Notes under the pieces: generated by a model
Database searches by the model: none
What the model was told of the DNA's origin: nothing
What the model saw: the letters and a program-made list of their open reading frames with translations, nothing else
NCBI RefSeq assembly: GCF_048403405.1
Contig: NZ_CP183129.1
DNA from: Escherichia coli
GTDB lineage: Bacteria; Pseudomonadota; Gammaproteobacteria; Enterobacterales; Enterobacteriaceae
Length of the DNA: 64,000 nucleotides
Reading direction: 5' to 3' (one strand)
Shown here: in pieces, positions 25,619-30,140 of the stretch
Position numbering within the stretch: position 1 is the first letter of the stretch
Layout of the letters: every line of letters starts with the position of its first letter
Program-made: the position numbers and the translations under genes

Positions 25619-26545
25619 GTGGCAGTCGCCATGGATAATGCAATTTTAGAAAACATCTTGCGGCAAGTGCGGCCGCTCATTGGTCAGGGTAAAGTCGCGG
25701 ATTATATTCCGGCGCTGGCTACGGTAGACGGTTCCCGATTGGGCATTGCTATCTGTACCGTTGACGGACAGCTTTTTCAGGCCGGAGACGCGCAAGAACG
25801 TTTTTCCATTCAGTCTATTTCCAAAGTGCTGAGTCTCGTTGTCGCCATGCGTCATTACTCCGAAGAGGAAATCTGGCAACGCGTCGGCAAAGATCCGTCT
25901 GGATCACCGTTCAATTCTTTAGTGCAACTGGAAATGGAGCAGGGTATTCCGCGTAATCCGTTTATTAATGCCGGTGCGCTGGTGGTCTGCGATATGTTGC
26001 AAGGGCGATTAAGCGCTCCTCGGCAACGTATGCTGGAAGTCGTGCGCGGCTTAAGCGGTGTGTCTGATATTTCCTACGATACAGTGGTAGCGCGTTCCGA
26101 ATTTGAACACTCCGCGCGAAATGCGGCTATCGCCTGGCTGATGAAGTCGTTTGGCAATTTCCATCATGACGTGACAACCGTTCTGCAAAACTACTTTCAT
26201 TACTGCGCTCTGAAAATGAGCTGTGTAGAGCTGGCCCGGACGTTTGTCTTTCTGGCTAATCAGGGGAAAGCTATTCATATTGATGAACCTGTGGTGACGC
26301 CAATGCAGGCGCGGCAAATTAACGCACTGATGGCGACCAGTGGTATGTACCAGAACGCGGGGGAGTTTGCCTGGCGGGTGGGACTACCGGCGAAATCTGG
26401 CGTTGGTGGCGGTATTGTGGCGATTGTTCCGCATGAAATGGCCATCGCAGTCTGGAGCCCGGAACTGGATGATGCCGGTAACTCGCTTGCGGGCATTGCT
26501 GTCCTTGAACAATTGACGAAACAATTAGGGCGTTCGGTTTATTAA
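25619..26545 (+). CDS. glsB: Glutaminase 2
   Basis: 308-aa serine-dependent glutaminase (…[11 protein letters not shown]…). Confidence 0.9.
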
Positions 26546-26904
26546 TGCAGTCTCTCGATCCACTCTTCGCGCGTTTATCCCGTTCAAAATTTCGCTCTCG
26601 CTTTCGTTTGGGGGTGAAAGAGCGTCAGTATTGTCTGGAGAAAGGCGCGCCAGTCATCGAACAACATGCGGCGGATTTTGTCGCTAAACGTCTTGCTCCG
26701 GCATTACCGGCTAACGACGGTAAGCAAACCCCCATGCGCGGGCATCCGGTGTTTATCGCTCAGCACGCCACTGCAACCTGTTGTCGCGGTTGTCTGGCTA
26801 AGTGGCATAACATTCCGCAGGGTGTTTCGTTAAGCGAGGAACAACAACGTTATATCGTGGCGGTAATCTATCACTGGTTGGTTATACAGATGAATCAGCC
26901 ATGA
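26545..26904 (+). CDS. yneG: DUF4186-family protein YneG
   Basis: 119-aa ORF whose start overlaps the glsB stop; name by synteny. Confidence 0.8.
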   Translation: MQSLDPLFARLSRSKFRSRFRLGVKERQYCLEKGAPVIEQHAADFVAKRLAPALPANDGKQTPMRGHPVFIAQHATATCCRGCLAKWHNIPQGVSLSEEQQRYIVAVIYHWLVIQMNQP

Positions 26905-27042
26905 TAATCGCGGAAAACGATAAAATAGCATTCCCAGGATATCTTTATTTGCCGCCGCTGTCAGCGAACATGCTATCCTTTATAAGAATTTACTTATTAC
27001 GTTGAGATAATTGCCACCCGCAATTGTATGGACAGATAATTA

Positions 27043-28461
27043 ATGCATGTACAGCCCATTTCAACTTTCCGTTTGTTCCAGGAAGGTCATCTGCTACGTA
27101 ATAGCATCGCTATTTTTGCGCTAACCACGCTGTTCTATTTTATTGGTGCAGAGTTACGGCTGGTTCACGAACTTTCTCTTTTCTGGCCGCTGAATGGCGT
27201 AATGGCGGGGGTGTTTGCCCGCTATGTCTGGCTTAATCGACTGCATTACTATGCGATCAGTTATGTGGCAATGCTGGTTTATGATGCCATAACCACCGAA
27301 TGGGGGCTGGTTTCACTGGCTATCAATTTCTCCAATATGATGTTTATTGTTACCGTCGCCTTACTGGTCGCGCGGGATAAGCGTCTGGGGAAAAATAAGT
27401 ATGAGCCAGTAAGTGCCTTACGGCTATTTAATTACTGTCTGATTGCCGCATTATTATGCGCTATTGTCGGGGCGATTGGTTCGGTCAGTATTGATAGTCT
27501 GGATTTCTGGCCTTTGCTTGCCGACTGGTTCAGTGAGCAATTCTCAACGGGCGTGTTGATCGTGCCTTGTATGCTGACGTTGGCAATTCCTGGAGTGCTG
27601 CCGCGCTTTAAAGCAGAACAGATGATGCCCGCTATCGCGCTTATTGTGTCGGTTATTGCCTCGGTAGTCATTGGCGGAGCGGGGAGTCTGGCGTTCCCAC
27701 TGCCTGCATTAATCTGGTGTGCAGTGCGCTATACGCCGCAGGTAACATGTCTGTTGACCTTTGTCACCGGTGCGGTGGAAATCGTACTGGTGGCAAATTC
27801 GGTGATTGATATCTCGGTCGGTTCGCCATTCTCCATTCCGGAAATGTTCTCCGCACGTCTCGGTATTGCCACGATGGCGATATGCCCAATTATGGTTTCT
27901 TTTAGCGTGGCAGCGATCAATTCGCTAATGAAGCAAGTTGCGCTGCGAGCCGACTTTGATTTTCTGACTCAGGTTTACTCACGGTCCGGTCTTTATGAGG
28001 CGCTGAAAAGTCCATCGCTGAAACAGACACAACATCTGACTGTCATGCTGCTTGATATCGACTATTTCAAAAGTATTAACGATAACTATGGACATGAATG
28101 TGGCGATAAAGTGTTAAGCGTGTTTGCAAGGCATATTCAGAAGATTGTCGGTGATAAGGGGCTGGTGGCACGAATGGGCGGCGAAGAATTTGCTGTTGCA
28201 GTGCCGTCGGTGAATCCTGTCGATGGTCTGCTAATGGCGGAAAAAATCCGTAAAGGCGTTGAACTGCAACCATTCACCTGGCAACAAAAAACGCTTTATC
28301 TCACGGTAAGTATTGGCGTCGGTAGTGGTCGCGCATCGTACCGAACGCTGACCGATGACTTTAATAAATTGATGGTCGAAGCCGATACGTGTCTGTATCG
28401 CTCGAAGAAAGATGGGCGCAACCGTACCAGCACTATGCGTTACGGTGAGGAAGTTGTCTGA
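27043..28461 (+). CDS. dgcF: Membrane-anchored diguanylate cyclase DgcF (YneF), full-length form with N-terminal multi-TM sensor domain
   Basis: 472-aa ORF; N-terminal half hydrophobic with multiple TM segments; C-terminal GGDEF domain with GGEEF motif (RMGGEEFAVAV). Confidence 0.85.
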   Translation: MHVQPISTFRLFQEGHLLRNSIAIFALTTLFYFIGAELRLVHELSLFWPLNGVMAGVFARYVWLNRLHYYAISYVAMLVYDAITTEWGLVSLAINFSNMMFIVTVALLVARDKRLGKNKYEPVSALRLFNYCLIAALLCAIVGAIGSVSIDSLDFWPLLADWFSEQFSTGVLIVPCMLTLAIPGVLPRFKAEQMMPAIALIVSVIASVVIGGAGSLAFPLPALIWCAVRYTPQVTCLLTFVTGAVEIVLVANSVIDISVGSPFSIPEMFSARLGIATMAICPIMVSFSVAAINSLMKQVALRADFDFLTQVYSRSGLYEALKSPSLKQTQHLTVMLLDIDYFKSINDNYGHECGDKVLSVFARHIQKIVGDKGLVARMGGEEFAVAVPSVNPVDGLLMAEKIRKGVELQPFTWQQKTLYLTVSIGVGSGRASYRTLTDDFNKLMVEADTCLYRSKKDGRNRTSTMRYGEEVV

Positions 28462-28688
28462 CATCTTTATTCATTCACAGCGATTTTAACGGAATGTGTT
28501 CTACCACTTTATTGAGCGAATAAAAGGCGTAGTTCCTCGATTAAACCATGATCCGCGCCACACTTTTCTCATAAAACTGCTCATTAATCATCAGGAGTTG
28601 ATCAAAACAGGGGTTCGGTGTATTAAAGTTTGCTAACCTGTCGTACCAATTCAAACAGGTTGTATGACTAATCAGAAGGGAACCCATT

Positions 28689-30140
28689 GTGAAAACACTA
28701 AATCGTCGCGATTTTCCCGGTGCACAGTATCCAGAACGTATCATTCAGTTTGGTGAAGGTAACTTCCTGCGCGCCTTTGTTGACTGGCAAATCGATCTCC
28801 TGAATGAGCACACCGATCTGAATTCTGGCGTGGTCGTTGTTCGTCCGATTGAAACTTCATTCCCACCGTCACTGAGCACACAGGATGGTCTGTACACCAC
28901 CATTATCCGTGGCCTGAATGAGAAGGGTGAAGCGGTCAGCGACGCGCGTCTGATTCGCTCGGTTAATCGTGAAATCAGCGTCTACAGTGAATTCGATGAA
29001 TTCCTGAAACTGGCGCACAATCCGGAAATGCGCTTTGTTTTCTCTAACACCACCGAAGCGGGTATCAGCTACCATGCGGGCGATAAATTCGATGACGCGC
29101 CGGCTGTAAGTTATCCGGCAAAACTGACCCGTCTGCTGTTCGAACGTTTTAGCCATTTCAACGGTGCGCTGGATAAAGGTTGGATCATCATCCCGTGTGA
29201 GTTGATCGACTACAATGGCGACGCGTTGCGTGAACTTGTGCTGCGCTATGCGCAAGAGTGGGCACTACCAGAAGCATTTATTCAATGGCTGGATCAGGCT
29301 AACAGCTTCTGTTCTACGCTGGTGGACCGTATCGTTACCGGCTATCCGCGTGATGAAGTGGCTAAACTGGAAGAAGAACTGGGTTATCACGATGGTTTCC
29401 TCGACACCGCTGAACACTTTTACCTGTTTGTGATTCAGGGGCCGAAATCCTTAGCGACTGAACTGCGTCTGGACAAATATCCGCTCAACGTGCTGATTGT
29501 TGACGATATTAAACCGTATAAAGAACGCAAAGTGGCAATACTCAACGGTGCGCACACCGCGCTGGTGCCGGTGGCGTTCCAGGCAGGGCTGGATACCGTA
29601 GGTGAAGCGATGAACGATGCTGAAATTTGCGCATTCGTTGAAAAAGCCATCTACGAAGAGATTATTCCGGTACTGGATTTGCCTCGTGATGAACTGGAAT
29701 CTTTCGCCAGTGCAGTCACCGGACGTTTCCGTAATCCGTACATCAAGCATCAGCTGCTGTCTATCGCGCTTAACGGTATGACCAAGTTCCGCACCCGTAT
29801 CCTGCCGCAGCTGCTGGCAGGGCAGAAGGCAAACGGCACACTTCCGGCGCGCCTTACTTTCGCATTAGCGGCATTGATTGCGTTTTATCGCGGTGAGCGT
29901 AATGGAGAAACATATCCGGTACAGGACGATGCCCACTGGCTGGAACGTTATCAGCAACTCTGGAGCCAGCATCGTGACCGTGTTATCGGCACCCAGGAGT
30001 TGGTAGCGATTGTGTTGGCAGAAAAAGACCACTGGGAGCAGGACCTGACGCAAGTGCCTGGTCTGGTCGAGCAGGTGGCTAATGACCTGGATGTGATTCT
30101 CGAAAAAGGAATGCGCGAAGCTGTACGTCCGTTGTGCTAA
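28689..30140 (+). CDS. uxaB: Altronate oxidoreductase (tagaturonate reductase)
   Basis: 483-aa mannitol dehydrogenase-family enzyme; apparent GTG start; N-terminus [30 protein letters not shown]. Confidence 0.9.

What the first reader, a model, noticed from the sequence alone, without database searches (positions are those of the whole stretch)
27043..28461. dgcF reads as a 472-aa membrane-sensor diguanylate cyclase
The continuous ORF encodes a multi-TM N-terminal domain followed by GGDEF. I recall the K-12 yneF annotation as shorter (about 315 aa), so either the K-12 annotation uses a downstream start or this allele is longer.
Basis: partly seen in the sequence, partly recalled or inferred. 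Interest (0 to 1): 0.25.

Follow-up and report, generated by a model that had tools for sequence, protein, structure and literature searches.

The report
Full-length dgcF; K-12 copy is truncated
This is the intact, ancestral 472-residue form of the E. coli membrane diguanylate cyclase DgcF (YneF); the 315-residue K-12 version is what is left after a 498-bp deletion, which has been published since 2014, so the finding is correct but ordinary.

Summary
The ORF at 27043-28461 (+) is real: 472 aa, with a multi-helix membrane domain (about aa 17-300) and a GGDEF domain (aa 303-461, E 2.4e-40). It lies in the sad-glsB-yneG-dgcF-uxaB context.

The cause of the length difference is a 498-bp deletion in K-12 (window 26978-27475). 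It removed 65 bp of upstream DNA, the native ATG and the first 144 codons. The K-12 reference then annotates an in-frame TTG, equivalent to codon 158 here. NCBI's PGAP pipeline calls the K-12 gene a pseudogene "missing N-terminus".

Full-length orthologs of 472-482 aa in E. fergusonii, Citrobacter, Enterobacter and Lelliottia show that the long form is ancestral. Richter et al. 2014 and Sarenko et al. 2017 already published this.

- The exact K-12 junction occurs in 1216 of 5426 complete E. coli genomes, many of them natural isolates, so it is not K-12-specific.
- The N-terminal domain, which has no Pfam hit, is a divergent MASE1 domain. Among four E. coli MASE1 proteins tested, only DgcE matched it.
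- Its modelled fold resembles the ligand-binding S-components of ECF transporters.

Novelty: already known. Interest: low.

The parts
27043..28461 (+). dgcF (yneF) full-length coding sequence, 472 aa plus stop
   Evidence: ORF list. Identical RefSeq CDS WP_000558439.1. Orthologs from five genera co-align from M1.
27091..27942 (+). N-terminal integral-membrane sensor domain (about aa 17-300), a divergent MASE1-like domain
   Evidence: No Pfam hit for the protein itself. 45 of 67 aligned family members hit Pfam MASE1 across nearly the whole profile. The family HMM scores 35.8 bits on the DgcE MASE1 domain, against a maximum of 8.0 bits in 1000 shuffles. The AF2 model shows about ten helices.
27949..28425 (+). 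GGDEF catalytic domain (aa 303-461)
28177..28191 (+). Active-site (A-site) motif GGEEF, aa 379-383. The I-site position upstream reads G-D-K-G, not RxxD.
   Evidence: Motif search in the translation. Agrees with Richter 2014, 'intact A-site but no I-site', and with the Spurbeck 2012 table.
26978..27475 (.). 498-bp segment absent from E. coli K-12: 65 bp upstream of the gene plus the first 433 nt of the coding sequence
   Evidence: The breakpoint scan gives one best solution, with no microhomology at the junction. The segment is present in 4196 of 5426 complete genomes. The exact K-12 junction is in 1216 of 5426.
27514..27516 (+). In-frame TTG (codon 158 here) that the K-12 reference uses as the start of its 315-aa dgcF
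   Evidence: NC_000913.3 b1522 is 948 nt and begins TTGCTTGCGGACTGG, translating to LLADWF....
26905..27042 (+). yneG-dgcF intergenic region (138 bp). Its 3' 65 bp are lost in K-12. It contains one promoter-like match (TTGCCA-18-GATAAT, 27011-27040).
   Evidence: Consensus scan: 5 sites found against 3.2 expected from shuffles, so this is not evidence of function. No transcription start site is mapped here.
26545..26904 (+). yneG (DUF4186), the upstream neighbour
   Evidence: RefSeq annotation of identical DNA.
28689..30140 (+). uxaB (tagaturonate reductase), the downstream neighbour
   Evidence: RefSeq annotation of identical DNA.

Best explanation
Window 27043-28461 encodes the intact, ancestral form of DgcF (YneF), an inner-membrane diguanylate cyclase.

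Proposed mechanism: an N-terminal, divergent MASE1-type membrane domain of about 300 aa is joined by one long helix (aa 267-304 in the model) to a cytoplasmic GGDEF domain. That domain has a GGEEF active site and no RxxD inhibitory site. As in other GGDEF enzymes, two catalytic domains of a dimer would condense two GTP into c-di-GMP. The membrane domain would set how the catalytic halves are positioned, and there would be no product feedback.

The 315-aa K-12 'DgcF' is a remnant. A 498-bp deletion removed the upstream region, the start codon and about the first five membrane helices. The K-12 annotation starts at an in-frame TTG, and the gene is natively silent.

Basis for each step:
- Shown here: gene structure, deletion breakpoints, allele frequencies, ancestral length, domain homology.
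- Shown in the literature: cyclase activity, lack of K-12 expression, weak RpoS-dependent expression of the full-length gene.
- Inferred: dimer mechanism, role of the membrane domain as signal input, identity of the signal (unknown).
For: - ORF and domains.
- Deletion mapped to window 26978-27475 with a single best breakpoint.
- K-12 reference CDS is 315 aa from a TTG. PGAP labels the K-12 gene a pseudogene 'missing N-terminus'.
- The long form is ancestral. 4196 of 5426 complete E. coli genomes hold the segment. Orthologs of 472-482 aa covering 97-100% of the query occur in E. fergusonii (83% identity), Citrobacter (79%), and Enterobacter and Lelliottia (about 70%). Their N-termini co-align from M1.
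- Literature: Richter 2014 states that K-12 yneF is 5'-truncated by a deletion, causing start codon misannotation and no expression in W3110, and that the full-size gene is weakly expressed in a mainly RpoS-dependent way (PMC4287979). Sarenko 2017 found K-12 DgcF undetectable and used the 55989 allele (PMC5635695).
- Activity: Shigella DgcF raises c-di-GMP in a GG-dependent way (PMC11327459). CFT073 delta-yneF phenotypes are rescued by the cyclase WspR (PMC3484386). Even the MG1655 315-aa fragment makes c-di-GMP when expressed from pBAD (PMC11757272).
- MASE1 relationship.
Against: - The E. coli protein itself does not hit Pfam MASE1 even at E<=10.
- Profile comparisons with UhpB and with a four-sequence E. 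coli MASE1 alignment were not significant. PdeA, PdeF and UhpB scored at background against the family HMM. The MASE1 assignment therefore rests on relatives and on DgcE.
- No Shine-Dalgarno sequence stronger than GGA is visible upstream of 27043.
- Residues 1-6 of the model have pLDDT below 50, and residues 1-16 have no predicted secondary structure.
- No transcription start, translation start or sensory ligand was determined here.
Confidence: 0.95

Rival explanations
1. K-12 carries the same DNA, and its 315-aa annotation is simply a wrongly chosen downstream start (an annotation artefact with no sequence difference).
For: The K-12 reference does start at a non-canonical TTG inside the frame, which looks like an annotation choice.
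Against: K-12 matches only 70% of the query, in two pieces spanning 1153 bp instead of 1651. The breakpoint scan shows 498 bp missing. In K-12 the frame upstream of the TTG runs into former intergenic DNA and a stop codon, with no ATG.
Confidence: 0.01
2. The short K-12 form is ancestral, and this window's allele gained a 5' extension by insertion or fusion.
For: None beyond the bare length difference.
Against: Full-length orthologs exist in four other genera, collinear from residue 1. 77% of complete E. coli genomes have the segment. The extension completes a domain that is homologous along its whole length to MASE1. All 1216 junction-bearing genomes share a single junction sequence, as expected from one deletion event.
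Confidence: 0.01
3. The gene is full length at the DNA level, but translation starts downstream of 27043 (for example at the TTG of codon 11), so the mature protein is slightly shorter than 472 aa.
For: There is only a weak GGA-type ribosome-binding sequence before 27043. Residues 1-16 are unstructured in the model and residues 1-6 have pLDDT below 50. The first 6-10 residues vary between genera. The one promoter-like match ends at 27040, which would place a transcription start at or after the ATG.
Against: All eight orthologs compared begin with M at the same aligned column and have the same N-terminal length. PGAP aa consistently. The promoter-like match is no more frequent than in shuffled sequence.
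Confidence: 0.08

Closest known systems
DgcF / YneF of non-K-12 E. coli and Shigella (e.g. EAEC 55989 and O104:H4, EHEC O157:H7, UPEC CFT073, S. flexneri 2457T)
   Same: The same gene. The 498-bp segment is 98-100% identical in E. coli 042, CFT073 and O157:H7. The whole region is 100% identical to strain TUM14771. The architecture matches the published description: a hydrophobic N-terminus of about 300 aa plus GGDEF with an A-site and no I-site.
   Different: Nothing of substance. This is one allele of a known gene.
E. coli K-12 DgcF (b1522, 315 aa)
   Same: The C-terminal 315 residues are collinear and differ at only two positions, E267Q and R434L. Genomic context is the same.
   Different: K-12 lacks window 26978-27475: the upstream 65 bp, the start codon and codons 1-144. 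It starts at an annotated TTG, is called a pseudogene by PGAP and is not expressed natively.
DgcE (YegE) N-terminal MASE1 domain, Pfam PF05231
   Same: An HMM of the DgcF-family N-terminal domain aligns to DgcE residues 1-251 at 35.8 bits, against a maximum of 8.0 in shuffles. That DgcE region is Pfam MASE1 at 129 bits. Both are membrane domains placed N-terminal to a GGDEF output.
   Different: DgcF itself is below Pfam detection. DgcE has PAS, GGDEF and degenerate EAL domains after MASE1, whereas DgcF goes straight from the membrane domain to GGDEF. From memory, not tested here: the DgcE MASE1 domain works through partner proteins (RdcA/RdcB; Pfiffer et al. 2019). No partner is known for DgcF.
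S-components of ECF vitamin transporters (RibU, BtuM, ThiT, FolT)

Membership tests
GGDEF diguanylate cyclases (Pfam PF00990 / TIGR00254) | GGDEF domain matched above the curated threshold | tested here: met
   [not shown]
GGDEF diguanylate cyclases (Pfam PF00990 / TIGR00254) | Intact GG(D/E)EF active-site motif | tested here: met
   GGEEF at aa 379-383, nearly invariant in the 67-member family alignment.
GGDEF diguanylate cyclases (Pfam PF00990 / TIGR00254) | RxxD allosteric inhibitory (I) site five residues upstream of GGDEF. This feature is optional and defines the feedback-inhibited subclass. | tested here: not met
   The position reads G-D-K-G, consistent with Richter 2014. DgcF therefore belongs to the subclass without product inhibition.
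GGDEF diguanylate cyclases (Pfam PF00990 / TIGR00254) | Demonstrated c-di-GMP synthesis | not testable with these tools
   Literature only: Shigella DgcF by LC-MS/MS and riboswitch reporter, and the MG1655 fragment by biosensor.
DgcF/YneF orthologous group | Near-identity and conserved synteny (sad-glsB-yneG-dgcF-uxaB) | tested here: met
   96-100% DNA identity to 5414 of 5426 complete E. coli genomes. Neighbours are identical.
MASE1 membrane sensor domain (Pfam PF05231) | Match to the Pfam MASE1 profile above the gathering score (29.8 bits) | tested here: not met
   The E. coli protein has no MASE1 hit even at E<=10. Among its relatives, 45 of 67 hit at E<=0.01 with a best E of 3.2e-11. Of ten inspected, one (P0212, 36.2 bits) passes the cutoff, and the hits span profile positions about 3-297 of 299.
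MASE1 membrane sensor domain (Pfam PF05231) | Detectable homology to a bona fide MASE1 domain | tested here: met
   The DgcF-family N-terminal HMM scores 35.8 bits on DgcE over HMM positions 1-257, against a maximum of 8.0 bits in 1000 shuffles. The DgcE N-terminus is MASE1 at 129 bits. However, UhpB, PdeA and PdeF scored at background. The best description is a divergent MASE1 subfamily.
MASE1 membrane sensor domain (Pfam PF05231) | Multi-helix (about 8 TM) integral membrane topology N-terminal to a signalling output domain | tested here: met
   Hydropathy gives 8-9 segments. The AF2 model shows about ten helices at aa 17-304, followed by GGDEF. No dedicated topology predictor was available.
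ECF-transporter S-component fold | Six-helix substrate-binding bundle that docks to an EcfT/EcfAA' module | tested here: inconclusive
   [not shown]

The most novel reading that the evidence does not exclude
The DgcF membrane domain is a divergent MASE1 whose helical bundle resembles the vitamin-binding S-components of ECF transporters. It may therefore bind a small molecule directly within the membrane, rather than acting through a partner protein, and switch an uninhibited cyclase. The repeated independent loss or remodelling of the gene (the K-12-type deletion in 22% of complete genomes, several glsB::dgcF and dgcF::uxaB fusions, and internal in-frame deletions) would then reflect selection against this input in some lineages.
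Probability: 0.15. Interest if true: 0.4.

Novelty: already known. Interest (0 to 1): 0.1.

Why it matters
- The practical point concerns annotation. The K-12 reference still lists a 315-aa 'putative diguanylate cyclase DgcF' that starts at a TTG. At least one 2025 study cloned and modelled that fragment as if it were the native protein. Anyone studying DgcF should use a full-length allele such as the one in this window.
- The deletion allele is not a K-12 peculiarity. It occurs in about a fifth of complete E. coli genomes, so natural populations are polymorphic for this cyclase.
- Linking the 'orphan' N-terminal domain to MASE1 and DgcE gives a starting point for finding its signal.
- None of this changes current understanding of c-di-GMP signalling.

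Tried and rejected
- The MAFFT pairwise alignment of the window against K-12 misplaced the gap. I replaced it with an explicit breakpoint scan.
- A Pfam scan of the N-terminal 300 aa at E<=10 gave only a spurious SAYSvFN hit.
- hhalign of the family profile against the single UhpB sequence gave probability 0.2%. Against a four-sequence E. coli MASE1 alignment it gave probability 21%, E 0.001, over 38 columns. Both were treated as inconclusive because the templates were thin.
- The family HMM scored UhpB, PdeA and PdeF at background.
- A PDB sequence-profile search found nothing for the membrane half.
- The two most relevant comparative papers, Povolotsky & Hengge 2016 and Hengge et al. 2016, are not held. 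I could not check what they say about the allele's distribution or the domain name, so my 'additions' may already be in them.
- The promoter scan found one site in the deleted upstream DNA, but at a frequency no higher than in shuffled sequence. No terminator was found.
- I did not determine the phylogroup of the deletion-bearing strains.

Full report
**Observation.** The window has one long ORF at 27043..28461 on the + strand, with an ATG start, encoding 472 aa. An in-frame TAA sits two codons upstream (27037-27039, read), so 27043 is the earliest possible start. Pfam GGDEF covers aa 303-461 (E 2.4e-40, 138 bits against a cutoff of 23.8), and NCBIfam TIGR00254 agrees. The first 300 residues are strongly hydrophobic, with about 8-9 segments by Kyte-Doolittle analysis. 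An AlphaFold2 model built on a 67-sequence alignment is confident (pLDDT 91.3, pTM 0.84). It shows about ten helices between aa 17 and 304, the last of which (aa 267-304) runs into the GGDEF fold. The neighbours are sad, glsB and yneG upstream and uxaB downstream. Identical DNA in strain TUM14771 is annotated by RefSeq as a 472-aa 'sensor domain-containing diguanylate cyclase'.

**Why K-12 is shorter.** A megablast of window 26850-28500 against 5426 complete E. coli genomes found the locus in 5414. K-12 records covered only 70% of the query, in two pieces spanning 1153 bp instead of 1651. MAFFT misplaced the gap, so I scanned all possible single breakpoints. The unique best solution is that K-12 lacks window 26978-27475, which is 498 bp, with no microhomology at the junction. 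The deletion removes 65 bp of the yneG-dgcF intergenic region, the ATG and the first 433 nt (144 codons) of the gene. That corresponds to roughly the first five membrane helices. In the K-12 reference NC_000913.3, b1522 dgcF is 948 nt (315 aa) and begins at a TTG corresponding to window 27514, codon 158 here. Upstream of it, the frame runs through the junction into former intergenic DNA and reaches a stop without any ATG. PGAP's annotation of another MG1655 assembly calls the gene a pseudogene, 'incomplete; missing N-terminus'. Over the shared 315 residues, the two proteins differ only at E267Q and R434L.

**Which form is ancestral.** The 498-bp segment is present in 4196 of 5426 complete genomes. 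A 44-nt probe across the K-12 junction cannot seed a match on a full-length allele. It matched 1216 of 5426 genomes, 1212 of them at >=99% identity. Together these account for 5412 of the 5414 genomes that carry the locus. Outside E. coli, orthologs covering 97-100% of the query are 472 aa in E. fergusonii (83% identity), 478 aa in Citrobacter (79%), and 479-482 aa in Enterobacter and Lelliottia (about 70%). Eight orthologs from five genera co-align from M1. The 472-aa form is therefore ancestral, and the K-12 form derives from a single deletion.

**What is already published.** Richter et al. 2014 state that EAEC O104:H4 and EHEC O157:H7 carry an extended yneF. [quoted passage not shown] They describe a hydrophobic N-terminal domain of about 300 aa, an intact A-site, no I-site, and weak, mainly RpoS-dependent expression (PMC4287979). 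Sarenko et al. 2017 repeat that K-12 dgcF is disrupted by a 5' deletion. They found the protein undetectable and used the 55989 allele instead (PMC5635695). The sequence here agrees: GGEEF lies at aa 379-383, and G-D-K-G occupies the position where RxxD would be. The core finding is therefore already known.

**Function from the literature.**
- Shigella flexneri DgcF raises c-di-GMP in a GG-dependent manner and affects acid resistance, invasion and plaque size (PMC11327459).
- Deleting yneF in UPEC CFT073 lowers biofilm formation on glycerol and adherence to bladder cells. The heterologous cyclase WspR rescues both phenotypes (PMC3484386).
- The MG1655 315-aa fragment also makes c-di-GMP when driven from pBAD, and this is abolished by E224A in the GGEEF motif (PMC11757272). 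The remnant is thus catalytically competent but natively silent. That study treats the fragment as the native protein, which shows the annotation still misleads.

1. *Distribution.* Sarenko et al. describe the deletion as specific to K-12. However, the identical junction occurs in 22% of complete genomes. These include isolates from humans, cattle, pigs, chickens, frogs, fish, a housefly, river water and food, with genome sizes up to 5.3 Mb. Povolotsky & Hengge 2016 may already report this, but that paper is not held.
   - An exhaustive search with residues 1-300 found 406 representative relatives at E<=0.001. Most are 460-490 aa with the domain at the N-terminus.
   - Of 67 aligned members, 66 carry GGDEF and 45 hit Pfam MASE1 at E<=0.01, with a best E of 3.2e-11.
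   - In ten members inspected, the MASE1 matches run collinearly over profile positions about 3-297 of 299, and one exceeds the curated cutoff.
   - An HMM of the family's N-terminal domain scores 35.8 bits on E. coli DgcE residues 1-251. The best of 1000 composition-matched shuffles scored 8.0 bits. That DgcE region is Pfam MASE1 at 129 bits.
   - UhpB, PdeA and PdeF did not score.
   - I conclude that this is a divergent MASE1 subfamily and that, of the four E. coli MASE1 proteins tested, only DgcE shows detectable similarity. The protein itself fails the Pfam threshold, so strict membership is not met.

**Mechanism.** The best-supported picture is an inner-membrane, MASE1-type sensor joined by a continuous helix to a GGEEF cyclase that lacks product inhibition. 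The protein would be active as a dimer, weakly expressed, and under RpoS control. The gene structure, deletion, ancestry and domain homology are shown here. Enzymatic activity and expression come from the cited papers. The dimer mechanism, the input role of the membrane domain and the nature of the signal are inferences.

**Rivals.**
- 'Same DNA, different start choice' is refuted.
- 'K-12 is ancestral and this allele is extended' is refuted.
- A slightly downstream true start remains possible at low probability. The ribosome-binding sequence is weak, and the first 16 residues are unstructured and variable. However, all orthologs begin at the same aligned methionine.

**Verdict.** The explanation is a known K-12 deletion, and the novelty rating is 'already known'. 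Interest is 0.1. The most novel reading not excluded is a direct intramembrane ligand sensor under recurrent loss. I give it probability 0.15, and an interest of 0.4 if true.

Noticed in passing
window 25619-28461 (glsB-yneG-dgcF); proteins P0022-P0025, P0051, P0070, P0080, P0081: Several predicted proteins in E. coli and Shigella assemblies are in-frame glsB::dgcF fusions with four different breakpoints: glsB 1-279 to DgcF 55, 1-308 to 83, 1-225 to 119, and 1-121 to 143. The S. flexneri and S. dysenteriae forms recur on several contigs, and P0051 is on 22 contigs. Each implies an independent deletion that removed yneG and the dgcF 5' end.
   Followed up: partly
window 27043-30140 (dgcF-uxaB); proteins P0021, P0047, P0062, P0064, P0071: There are further structural variants. 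These include dgcF::uxaB-type fusions (DgcF 1-430 or 1-396 followed by a mannitol-dehydrogenase-family C-terminus). There are also internal in-frame deletions of DgcF: residues 200-281, 269-355 and 253-373. Together with the K-12 deletion, they suggest the locus is repeatedly remodelled or lost, though some single-contig cases could be assembly errors.
   Followed up: partly
L003 (NZ_CP136900.1, strain LI60C3) 2694-4084; corresponds to window about 27043-27835 onward: This mouse-gut isolate has a larger deletion. It joins the middle of dgcF directly to a truncated tam gene, removing uxaB and the genes beyond it. hipBA follows.
   Followed up: no
[not shown]
   Followed up: partly
NC_000913.3 1610907-1611854 (L004 1908-2855) against NZ_CP032667.1 (L001 1628-2614): Annotation of the same K-12 sequence is inconsistent. 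The curated reference keeps a 315-aa CDS from a TTG, named 'putative diguanylate cyclase DgcF'. PGAP marks it as a pseudogene missing its N-terminus. In other deletion-bearing strains the feature is named 'GGDEF domain-containing protein'. A 2025 paper cloned and modelled the 315-aa fragment as DgcF.
   Followed up: yes
window 27011-27040: The only sigma-70-like match in the yneG-dgcF intergenic region (TTGCCA-18-GATAAT, 10 of 12 positions) ends 3 nt before the ATG. It would therefore give a leaderless or internally initiated transcript, and it lies within the DNA deleted in K-12. The number of such matches in the region is no higher than in shuffled sequence, so it may be chance. The published expression is RpoS-dependent.
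   Followed up: no
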